Under the pieces are notes generated by a model. The model saw nothing but the letters and a program-made list of their open reading frames with translations. It made no database searches and had not been told where the DNA came from. This document shows, piece after piece, positions 23,629 to 25,020 of a stretch of DNA of 64,000 nucleotides (the stretch's first letter is position 1; every line of letters begins with the position of its first letter). This stretch comes from Haplodiscus bocki (Eukaryota): contig OZ296658.1 of assembly GCA_965655095.1 (NCBI GenBank), positions 34,844,001-34,908,000 on the forward strand, in the 5' to 3' direction. Made by a program: the position numbers and the translations under genes.

Positions 23629-23642
23629 AGAAGATGGGGGAG
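23629..23642 (+). other. Polypurine-tract-like sequence AGAAGATGGGGGAG, displaced 1.28 kb upstream of the 3' LTR
   Basis: 13 of 14 bases are purines with a G run; it is the only PPT-like stretch I see in the 3' internal region. Confidence 0.45.
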
Positions 23643-24201
23643 TCGTGGCTGTACAATATAGATTTTGTCACATTATGGTAACTATTGACACGATATTACC
23701 TATCTAACATTATCTACATTTTTACTATAAAGGTCAACTTCTGCCAGAGTTGCCTAACAAAGGACCTTTATCAAATTCATTTTTCATTTCACATATAAAT
23801 CTCATTCACTTTTTTTACTTTTCATTAAAAGTATCATACTTTACGTTGATTGGCTCTTACCATTACAAAAGGTGAGCTTGCACTCATCAAAGTGAAGTGC
23901 CGCTTCAACTTCATCAACATAATCACTCATGGTTATTGATGACCACTTAAAACTCGAGTTTTAATATCGCCATGAAATAAATTAGTTACAATCAAACATG
24001 ATTCCTTTTAACCTAAGCGCCTTAACCCGAGCAACCCCCTCCCTTCAACGAAAGGCAAAAACCCGCGAAATTTCTCCACGAAAACTTTTTAAAATATTAA
24101 CCTTATATTCATTCATATTTTCAAGTTTCATTCTAATCAGTCGCTTCAATTCAAAAATATTCTCTCCAACCACGGTGTTACAATATTTCAAAAAGAAAGC
24201 C

Positions 24202-25020
24202 ATGGCTGAAATGAACTCTCAATTTAACCTTGATGGAGATCAGGAAATGGAAACACAACCCATTTACCTATCCAGTGATGAGAGTGAAATCGCTTCACCC
24301 CACTCATCACCTACCCGACAGCTGCCAAACAACGTTCCTGATACGTACAGTGCCATAACCCAACTAATAGCAGCACAACACGAACAAATGTCATTGTCCG
24401 GCACCTCTGCCTTACAATATCCAACCACCCCGCCAACTTCGTTGATCTCCGATGACGAGAATGATGAGGTGCTCACCCCAATAATTGGCAATCCCGCCCA
24501 GTTCTCACCGTATATTGCGAATCGCCACCCTATCTCTCTCCAATTATGCCAACAAACAACACCCATCCCATATACGCCAGAATCGCCAACTCTAGAAAAT
24601 CGTGGGCAATCAGACACCTTTCGTCCTTACGATATTCCCAAAACAACCGTCCTCAATTTTATTACACAACTCCCCATTATCACGACAGTAGCTGATGGAT
24701 TGCAAAATTTGACATTGCATCCCCATCCACAACGCAATAAATGGGTGACAGGATGTTTGGTCAGCGGAAAATCCTACGACCAAGTCAGAGAAGAAACTGT
24801 TGCCATATATCTCAACCAGACAGCGCAACCAGGGTAGACAGTACGAGAACGCCAAATCAAAAGAAATGCTTTCATTGACGGTATTCAGAGTGGCGCCTTC
24901 ACATTCCTCCTCCCCGGAGTGTCGCAGGATGCCGCCTGTGGCTACCTGGTCTCCTCCGTTAAAAACAATAGACAAAACTCGGGATCACAAGGATACGCGC
25001 TGCCCTTATTTGAAGATTAA
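24202..25020 (+). pseudogene. Third sense ORF (Pro/Ser/Thr/acidic, ~272 codons, one internal TAG) ending inside the 3' LTR
   Basis: Reads MAEMNSQF...KWVTGCLVSGKSY...QPG*TVRERQIKRNAFIDGIQSGAFTFLLPGVSQDAACGYLVSSVKNNRQNSGSQGYALPLFED* in a single frame. The LTR-encoded tail is conserved at protein level in the other LTR copies. Confidence 0.75.

What the first reader, a model, noticed from the sequence alone, without database searches (positions are those of the whole stretch)
23629..24925. No PPT beside the 3' LTR; pyrimidine-rich coding sequence instead
Seen: the bases before the 3' LTR are CCTTCACATTCCTCCTCCCCGGAG, and ORF3 reads continuously across the junction (FTFLLPGV-SQDAAC), so a PPT was not simply deleted. 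The only PPT-like tract is 1.28 kb upstream. Three independent insertions (1647, 11603, 62093) nevertheless all start at TGTCG, two of them with TSDs. Known: the PPT primer normally defines the U3 end. Inference: the left end of the cDNA is set by a non-canonical primer or by processing of a longer product.
Basis: partly seen in the sequence, partly recalled or inferred. Interest (0 to 1): 0.7.

Follow-up and report, generated by a model that had tools for sequence, protein, structure and literature searches.

The report
Gypsy family lacking LTR-adjacent polypurine tract
A large family of gypsy-type retrotransposons has no purine-rich primer beside its right-hand repeat, where one is normally needed to start the second DNA strand, and probably uses a short C/G-rich stretch inside a gene instead.

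Summary
The element (11603-26711) is a Ty3/gypsy-type LTR retrotransposon. Its 1.8-kb LTR begins inside an extra sense gene (ORF3) and ends inside gag. Only 4 of the 15 bases before the 3' LTR are purines. Of 119 close ORF3 relatives, 82 span the junction in frame, nearly all as F-T-F-I/L-P-P-G-V, so they carry no polypurine tract (PPT) there either. An independent metagenome copy has six C followed by GGGAG at the junction. Three insertions start at TGTCG, one with a perfect 5-bp target-site duplication (TSD), so the left end is precise.

Best reading (inferred, about 0.55): RNase H spares a roughly 11-nt C-run/GGGAG fragment ending at the boundary, and this primes the plus strand. The glycine codon there is GGA in 24 of 24 readable copies. 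In the metagenome copy that 11-mer is the most stable predicted RNA:DNA hybrid of 1178. The purine tract 1.28 kb upstream stays purine-rich across the family and may be a second primer. Sole upstream priming with trimming of the end is not excluded. No cDNA ends were seen, so the mechanism is untested.

The parts
11598..11602 (+). left TSD (CCAAC); the right copy at 26712-26716 matches 4 of 5
11603..13398 (+). 5' LTR (TG...CA); holds the last ~33 codons of ORF3 and the first ~188 codons of gag
12834..14535 (+). gag, starting inside the LTR; broken by stops and frameshifts; zinc knuckle
   Evidence: Pfam hits below curated cut-off
13399..13409 (+). PBS-like TGG motif directly after the LTR's CA, inside the gag frame; matching tRNA not identified
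   Evidence: no tRNA in the window
15161..18918 (+). pol (PR-RT-RNase H-IN order), broken; the integrase core (aa 941-1201 of relative P0284) is missing near 17951-17973
21197..23294 (-). antisense family gene (~660-730 aa in relatives, Cys/His motif, no Pfam family above cut-off), broken here
23629..23642 (+). upstream purine tract (13 of 14 purines) preceded by TTTC; candidate second plus-strand primer
23643..23741 (+). conserved non-coding block (about 90% identical to L001, whose contig starts exactly at 23643)
24202..25020 (+). ORF3 (272 codons from Met; frame open from 23986); crosses into the LTR; in-frame stop at 24835-24837 in this copy; function unknown
24909..24919 (+). C-run plus GGAG ending at the LTR boundary; candidate short plus-strand primer
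24920..26711 (+). 3' LTR; its first 66 nt carry 13 of the 26 substitutions against the 5' LTR
60151..62093 (-). solo LTR of another subfamily (70-76% identity), starts TGTCG, perfect TSD TCACT at 62094-62098 and 60146-60150
1..1647 (-). third LTR left end (79% identity), starts TGTCG, flanked by non-ORF3 DNA, runs off the window

Best explanation
The family replicates by the ordinary gypsy route, but its U3-defining primer has lost most of its purines because it sits inside ORF3 codons. Step 1, shown: the LTR left end is precise at TG within the Val codon, and no long purine tract lies beside it. Step 2, inferred: during minus-strand synthesis RNase H spares a roughly 9-13 nt fragment, a C-run followed by GGGAG, that is held by G/C pairing and not by purine content. 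It is cut at the G|TG boundary and primes the plus strand, which fixes the left end. Step 3, from known integrase chemistry: a normal integrase inserts the TG...CA ends with a 5-bp duplication. Step 4, inferred and weaker: the T-box plus purine tract at 23629 is a second primer, like a central PPT, whose strand could displace the long strong-stop DNA.
For: The junction is pyrimidine-coded in the family: among 82 spanning relatives F233 77, F235 76, P237 71, P238 73, G239 75, V240 79. All 88 matching rows of 133 further members read likewise.
Copies frameshifted in the C-run expose silent positions. The glycine codon before the boundary ends in A in 24 of 24 and the preceding proline ends in G in 21 of 24, while a glycine 18 codons downstream has A in only 7 of 11 (p=0.006).
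In 47 distant rows (<60% identity) the boundary residue is V, L or M (codons that can carry TG) in 45 and I in 2, against I in 13 of 44 at another valine (p=0.001). The residue two before is R 25, G 6, W 3, which fits a slightly longer G-run.
In L001 the 9- to 13-mers ending at the boundary rank in the top 3 of about 1180 for predicted RNA:DNA stability. The 11-mer (59.8 C) exceeds the Ty3 PPT (49.9 C).
Ty3 PPT cleavage depends on fit and hybrid geometry with the cognate RT (PMC5371799, passages).
Against: No primer or cDNA end was observed. I found no report of a C-rich plus-strand primer; described PPTs are 8-49 nt purine-rich (PMC7264820, passage).
The silent-site rows were selected by a frameshift in the C-run and may be close kin. 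The conserved block continues 27 nt into the LTR, so it may reflect the integrase attachment site or the protein, not a primer.
In this window's copy the 11-mer ranks only 18 of 1267 locally and 163 of 11511 element-wide. The stability ranking used one parameter set, and L001 is a single copy.
A much better-looking PPT is conserved upstream, and L001 begins exactly after it.
Confidence: 0.55

Rival explanations
1. The tract at 23629-23642 is the only plus-strand primer. The cDNA carries a 1.28-kb extension at its left end, which integrase or another nuclease cuts internally at G|TG before integration.
For: The tract is preceded by TTTC, like U-box/T-box elements (PMC10085805, passage). It stays purine-rich in other copies and ranks 31 of 11508 14-mers for hybrid stability. 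The following ~100 nt are about 90% conserved, and contig L001 starts at the first base after it. The element carries two accessory genes of unknown function.
Against: The relative's integrase has an ordinary layout and no added nuclease domain in Pfam. In HIV-1, extended ends reduce 3' processing, and upstream (cPPT) priming alone yields 1-LTR circles without integration (PMC13332604, passages). The tract also lies in a possible intron of the antisense transcript, where it would read as pyrimidines. The start of L001 is one observation and may be an assembly branch point.
Confidence: 0.15
2. There is no dedicated primer. Leftover RNase H fragments prime at many places, and integrase accepts only the minority of cDNAs that happen to begin at TGTCG.
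For: It needs no special sequence upstream of the boundary. Precise genomic ends are filtered by integration anyway. The strongest conservation runs into the LTR's first 27 nt.
Against: Silent sites on the upstream side of the boundary are also fixed (24 of 24 and 21 of 24). The family is very successful: one Pol cluster has 1172 members, which argues against a wasteful route.
Confidence: 0.14
3. The active form has a 3.07-kb LTR starting just after the upstream PPT and containing all of ORF3. The 1.8-kb LTRs are a derived form.
For: L001 starts at 23643. One 33.5-kb contig holds two ORF3 copies 99.6% alike. Laid depth at 23652-23920 reaches that of the LTR (the tool warns this is no copy number).
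Against: All 3 insertion left ends in the window start at TGTCG, across subfamilies 67-79% alike. Among 150 listed members of 17 ORF3 clusters only that one near-identical same-contig pair appears; fully identical pairs would be hidden, and contigs were matched by length. There is no TG at the first two positions after the tract (first TG at 23646). Short-LTR insertions with a TSD would still need their own primer.
Confidence: 0.07
4. The primer comes in trans, as a sense small RNA or a fragment of the spliced ORF3 message whose 3' end falls at the boundary.
For: It would allow a precise end without RNase H resistance. ORF3 has a candidate splice acceptor near 24139 in both the window and L001.
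Against: There is no positive evidence, and I know no precedent (recall).
Confidence: 0.05
5. The missing PPT is a peculiarity of this decayed copy: a 1.27-kb insertion between PPT and LTR flanked by GGAGT, a chimera or a misassembly.
For: GGAGT occurs at 23640-23644 and at 24916-24920. The first 66 nt of the 3' LTR are unusually divergent (13 changes against 5 in the next 1562 nt, p=2e-15).
Against: The same junction occurs in 82 of 119 relatives, in 88 of 133 more, and in L001. Other copies read A at 23637 and 23639, so the G-run before the upstream GGAGT is private to this copy. The LTR start encodes the conserved ORF3 C-terminus in all four LTRs.
Confidence: 0.03

Closest known systems
Ty3 (Saccharomyces cerevisiae), Ty3/gypsy LTR retrotransposons
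   Same: PR-RT-RH-IN order; best solved-structure match for family Pol (7q5b, E 1.8e-43); TG...CA ends; 5-bp TSD.
   Different: Ty3 has a 12-nt all-purine PPT just upstream of U3 and no central PPT (PMC5371799, passages). Here there are 4-5 purines at the boundary, a purine tract 1.28 kb upstream, two extra genes, and ORFs crossing both inner LTR boundaries.
HIV-1 nef/3'PPT overlap and central PPT
   Same: An accessory ORF runs through the U3 boundary (nef overlap recalled); a second purine tract lies upstream; a U-rich box precedes the tract.
   Different: HIV keeps 15 purines inside nef, and damage to its G-tract costs fitness and diverts it to 1-LTR circles (PMC13332604, passages). This family integrates with a TSD despite a C-rich junction.
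Plant gypsy elements with additional ORFs (Grande, RIRE2, Retand)
   Same: Conserved extra ORFs, including antisense ones, between pol and the 3' LTR (PMC7264820, passages).
   Different: No homology was tested or seen. The passages read do not describe an ORF entering the LTR or a missing PPT.
Tf1-group fission yeast elements
   Same: Weakly conserved PPT with a pyrimidine motif upstream that is partly included in the primer (PMC10085805, passage).
   Different: They retain a recognisable purine tract adjacent to the LTR.

Membership tests
Ty3/gypsy LTR retrotransposon | Pol order PR-RT-RNase H-integrase | tested here: met
   P0284 (86% identical) carries all domains and maps collinearly on the window
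Ty3/gypsy LTR retrotransposon | RT closest to Ty3/gypsy | tested here: met
   Best PDB hit is Ty3 Gag-Pol, E 1.8e-43; no tree was built, so the clade within gypsy is not assigned
Ty3/gypsy LTR retrotransposon | Direct LTRs with TG...CA ends and 4-6 bp TSD | tested here: met
   98.4% LTR pair; solo LTR with perfect 5-bp TSD; the element's own TSD matches 4 of 5 and its 3' end reads TA
Ty3/gypsy LTR retrotransposon | DDE integrase with HHCC domain | tested here: met
   Present in P0284 (D1054, D1113, E1149); the core is deleted in this copy
Ty3/gypsy LTR retrotransposon | tRNA primer-binding site after the 5' LTR | tested here: inconclusive
   TGG motif directly after CA; no host tRNA was available to match
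Canonical PPT-primed LTR retroelement | Purine tract of 8 nt or more directly before the 3' LTR | tested here: not met
   4 purines in the window and 5 in L001; family codons F-T-F-I/L-P-P-G. This lowers 'canonical PPT', not descent from gypsy.
Canonical PPT-primed LTR retroelement | Plus strand starts from an RNase H-resistant RNA fragment at the U3 boundary | not testable with these tools
   Needs cDNA ends or an in-vitro assay
Env-bearing gypsy (errantivirus-like) | ORF3 encodes an envelope glycoprotein | tested here: inconclusive
   No Pfam hit; 272 aa, mostly low-confidence in the model; no significant fold match. Nothing points to env.
DIRS/Ngaro tyrosine-recombinase elements | Tyrosine recombinase, inverted or split repeats, no TSD | tested here: not met
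   DDE integrase, direct LTRs and 5-bp TSD instead; the family's features are recalled

The most novel reading that the evidence does not exclude
The family primes its plus strand only at the tract 1.28 kb upstream and then cuts the long cDNA end internally at G|TG, using integrase or one of its two orphan proteins. The LTR end would then be set by DNA cleavage rather than by the primer, a step not described for LTR retroelements in the papers I read.
Probability: 0.15. Interest if true: 0.88.

Novelty: new variant of a known kind. Interest (0 to 1): 0.6.

Why it matters
The PPT beside the 3' LTR is treated as a fixed requirement of LTR retroelement replication, and losing it cripples integration in HIV-1. 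A natural, high-copy family that integrates precisely without one shows that purine content may not be what makes a plus-strand primer. It offers a direct test: a C-rich 11-mer against a conventional tract, both in one element with its own RT. Annotation tools that score a PPT may also misplace the boundaries of such families (inference).

Tried and rejected
More DNA copies: no whole genome is held. Scans of viral contigs and prokaryote genomes found none. L003 has no similarity to the window beyond the pattern (no hit). L002 is a weak partial match that I did not pursue.

Reads: no RNA holder was listed. The loose-end table (24 of 2347 rows shown) lists neither 23643 nor 24920. The control at 24920 failed, probably because this copy is divergent there, so it cannot test the long-LTR idea. 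Only 40 of 604 variant rows were shown, none in 24890-24920. The depth step at 23643 was not used as evidence, since this copy's three private changes would clip alignments there.

ORF3 function: no Pfam family and no Atlas hit. The whole-protein model has pLDDT 42. The C-terminal model (pLDDT 65) gave best Z 5.4 on generic helical hairpins and no viral match at E<=0.001. The antisense protein gave only Atlas leads under 0.9.

Self-priming hairpin: the junction folds differ between the window and L001, and the minus strand has no free end there; rejected.

LTR-pair control for the same-contig test: it returned singleton clusters, so that test has no positive control.

Host: not identified by any tool; a recalled resemblance to acoel flatworm repeats is untested.

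Literature: no description of a PPT-less integrating gypsy family appeared in searches. The library lacks most subscription papers and repeat databases. No supplements were read.

Full report
The element. A self-comparison shows a direct repeat at 11603-13398 and 24920-26711 (98.4% identity) and two further copies on the minus strand, 1-1647 and 60151-62093, at 67-79%. Between the pair lie a broken gag and pol. A relative with an uninterrupted frame (P0284, 86% identical) has protease, RT, RNase H and an HHCC/D-D35-E integrase, and its best solved match is Ty3. This copy lacks the integrase core. After pol come an antisense gene with 198 longer homologues, about 900 nt of intergenic DNA, and a sense gene, ORF3. 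The host is a eukaryote that I could not identify, and no genome was held.

The observation. The 15 bases before the 3' LTR hold 4 purines. ORF3 crosses the boundary and ends 100 nt inside the LTR, and all four LTR starts encode that C-terminus. All begin TGTCG. The solo LTR has a perfect 5-bp TSD and the full element a 4-of-5 TSD. The nearest strong purine tract is 23629-23642, one of three in 18901-24990.

Is it private to this copy? It is not. ORF3 has 544 relatives at E<=0.001, of which 120 were listed. Of the 119 that are not the window's own, 82 span the junction in frame, with F233 in 77, F235 in 76, P237 in 71, P238 in 73, G239 in 75 and V240 in 79. The other 37 end or shift frame at or before it. 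All 88 matching rows among 133 further cluster members read the same way. These residues require pyrimidine-rich codons. The one independent DNA copy I could fetch, L001 from a metagenome, has six C followed by GGGAG before TGTCG. Deletion, insertion and misassembly in this copy are therefore rejected.

Signs of constraint at the boundary. Copies that slipped by one base in the C-run translate in a frame that exposes third codon positions. I found 24 such rows: 13 among close relatives and 11 among representatives, after dropping one in-frame false match. The glycine before the boundary ends in A in 24 of 24, and the proline before it ends in G in 21 of 24. Fourfold sites stay nearly fixed for nine codons into the LTR (the first five columns were set by my search pattern) and vary after that. 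A glycine 18 codons on has A in 7 of 11 (p=0.006). Among 47 distant rows under 60% identity, the boundary residue is V 39, L 5, M 1, I 2, whereas another valine is I in 13 of 44. The residue two before is mostly R, G or W, which suggests five or six purines ending in G-G-A-G in the wider family. These rows are partly decayed copies and not independent, and protein constraint could contribute.

Hybrid stability. With RNA:DNA nearest-neighbour parameters, the 9- to 13-mers ending at the boundary in L001 rank first to third of about 1180. The advantage fades at 14-15 nt (ranks 21 and 90). In the window's copy they rank in the top 1-4%. The L001 11-mer (59.8 C) lies between the Ty3 PPT (49.9 C) and the HIV-1 PPT (63.5 C). 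This is a prediction, not a measurement of RNase H resistance.

The upstream tract. Contigs from four runs (at most three samples, two studies) read A at 23630, 23637 and 23639 in 97-100% of depth, so the tract keeps its purines while this copy's G-run is private. It follows TTTC, and a T-rich box upstream of a PPT aids priming in several retroviruses and Ty1 (PMC10085805, passage). The next 100 nt are about 90% identical to L001, which starts exactly there. That is the best evidence for the rivals. Against a long LTR: 3 of 3 insertion ends in the window are short, and only one near-identical same-contig ORF3 pair appears among 150 listed members of 17 clusters. That test has no working positive control and cannot see identical pairs. 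The read tables were too heavily cut to test either boundary directly.

Mechanism. In Ty3 the PPT just upstream of U3 primes repeatedly, and cleavage depends on the fit between RT and hybrid geometry (PMC5371799, passages). In HIV-1, loss of 3' PPT priming leaves cPPT priming and 1-LTR circles, and extended ends lower integrase processing (PMC13332604, passages). A family that makes precise, TSD-flanked insertions in several subfamilies therefore most simply still primes at the boundary. I propose a short G/C-held primer embedded in ORF3 codons (0.55), with the upstream tract as a possible second primer. The rivals are upstream priming with internal trimming (0.15), scattered priming filtered by integrase (0.14), a long-LTR active form (0.07), a primer in trans (0.05) and artefact (0.03). 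The precise end and the missing tract are shown; every priming step is inferred.

Accessory proteins. Neither ORF3 nor the antisense protein matched a Pfam family above cut-off. ORF3 has a conserved C-terminal part with CxxC and a helical hairpin, but nothing suggests what it does.

Papers. I read passages of PMC5371799, PMC13332604, PMC10085805 and PMC7264820, the abstract and outline of PMC3185511, and otherwise search listings. None of these described an integrating gypsy family without an LTR-adjacent PPT. Repeat databases and most subscription journals were not searchable. The nef overlap and the DIRS features are recalled.

Verdict. The feature is real and family-wide, a new variant of a known kind; interest 0.6.

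Noticed in passing
window 24920-24985 and 13231-13361: The LTR pair differs mainly at the edges facing the internal region. There are 13 changes in the first 66 nt (10 derived in the 3' LTR by outgroup), 5 in the next 1562 nt, and 7 near the end (4 derived in the 5' LTR by one outgroup). This fits recombination of a cDNA or circle into an older LTR, or conversion between the LTRs.
   Followed up: partly
window 12834-13398: About 188 gag codons lie inside the LTR, so both inner LTR boundaries fall in coding sequence. A splice-donor-like AG|GTAAGT sits at 13341 and 26654.
   Followed up: partly
window ~23700 (-) and ~23318 (-); L001:58 (-): A minus-strand donor (intact in L001, one base short in the window) and a pyrimidine tract with TAG acceptor suggest a spliced antisense transcript. 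This would explain the purine tract at 23322.
   Followed up: partly
L001:1: The metagenome contig begins at exactly the first base after the upstream purine tract; unexplained.
   Followed up: partly
window 19089-21148 (-): Further minus-strand ORF fragments inside the element, not covered by the antisense protein matches; possibly a second antisense gene.
   Followed up: no
window 31785-35709 (+) and about 53000-57800 (-): Broken host-like gene with sub-threshold SNTX/MACPF and AAA hits, and an inverted, 64-82% similar second copy.
   Followed up: no
window 36520-37850: Degenerate 9-bp tandem repeat array with open frames on both strands.
   Followed up: no
P0308, P0335, P0344: Some related Pol proteins carry a dUTPase domain (PF00692) by precomputed Pfam (accession meaning recalled).
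   Followed up: no
P0106 / P0580: Two ORF3 copies 99.6% alike lie on contigs of the same 33,526-bp length: a tandem element, a duplication or a long-LTR pair.
   Followed up: partly
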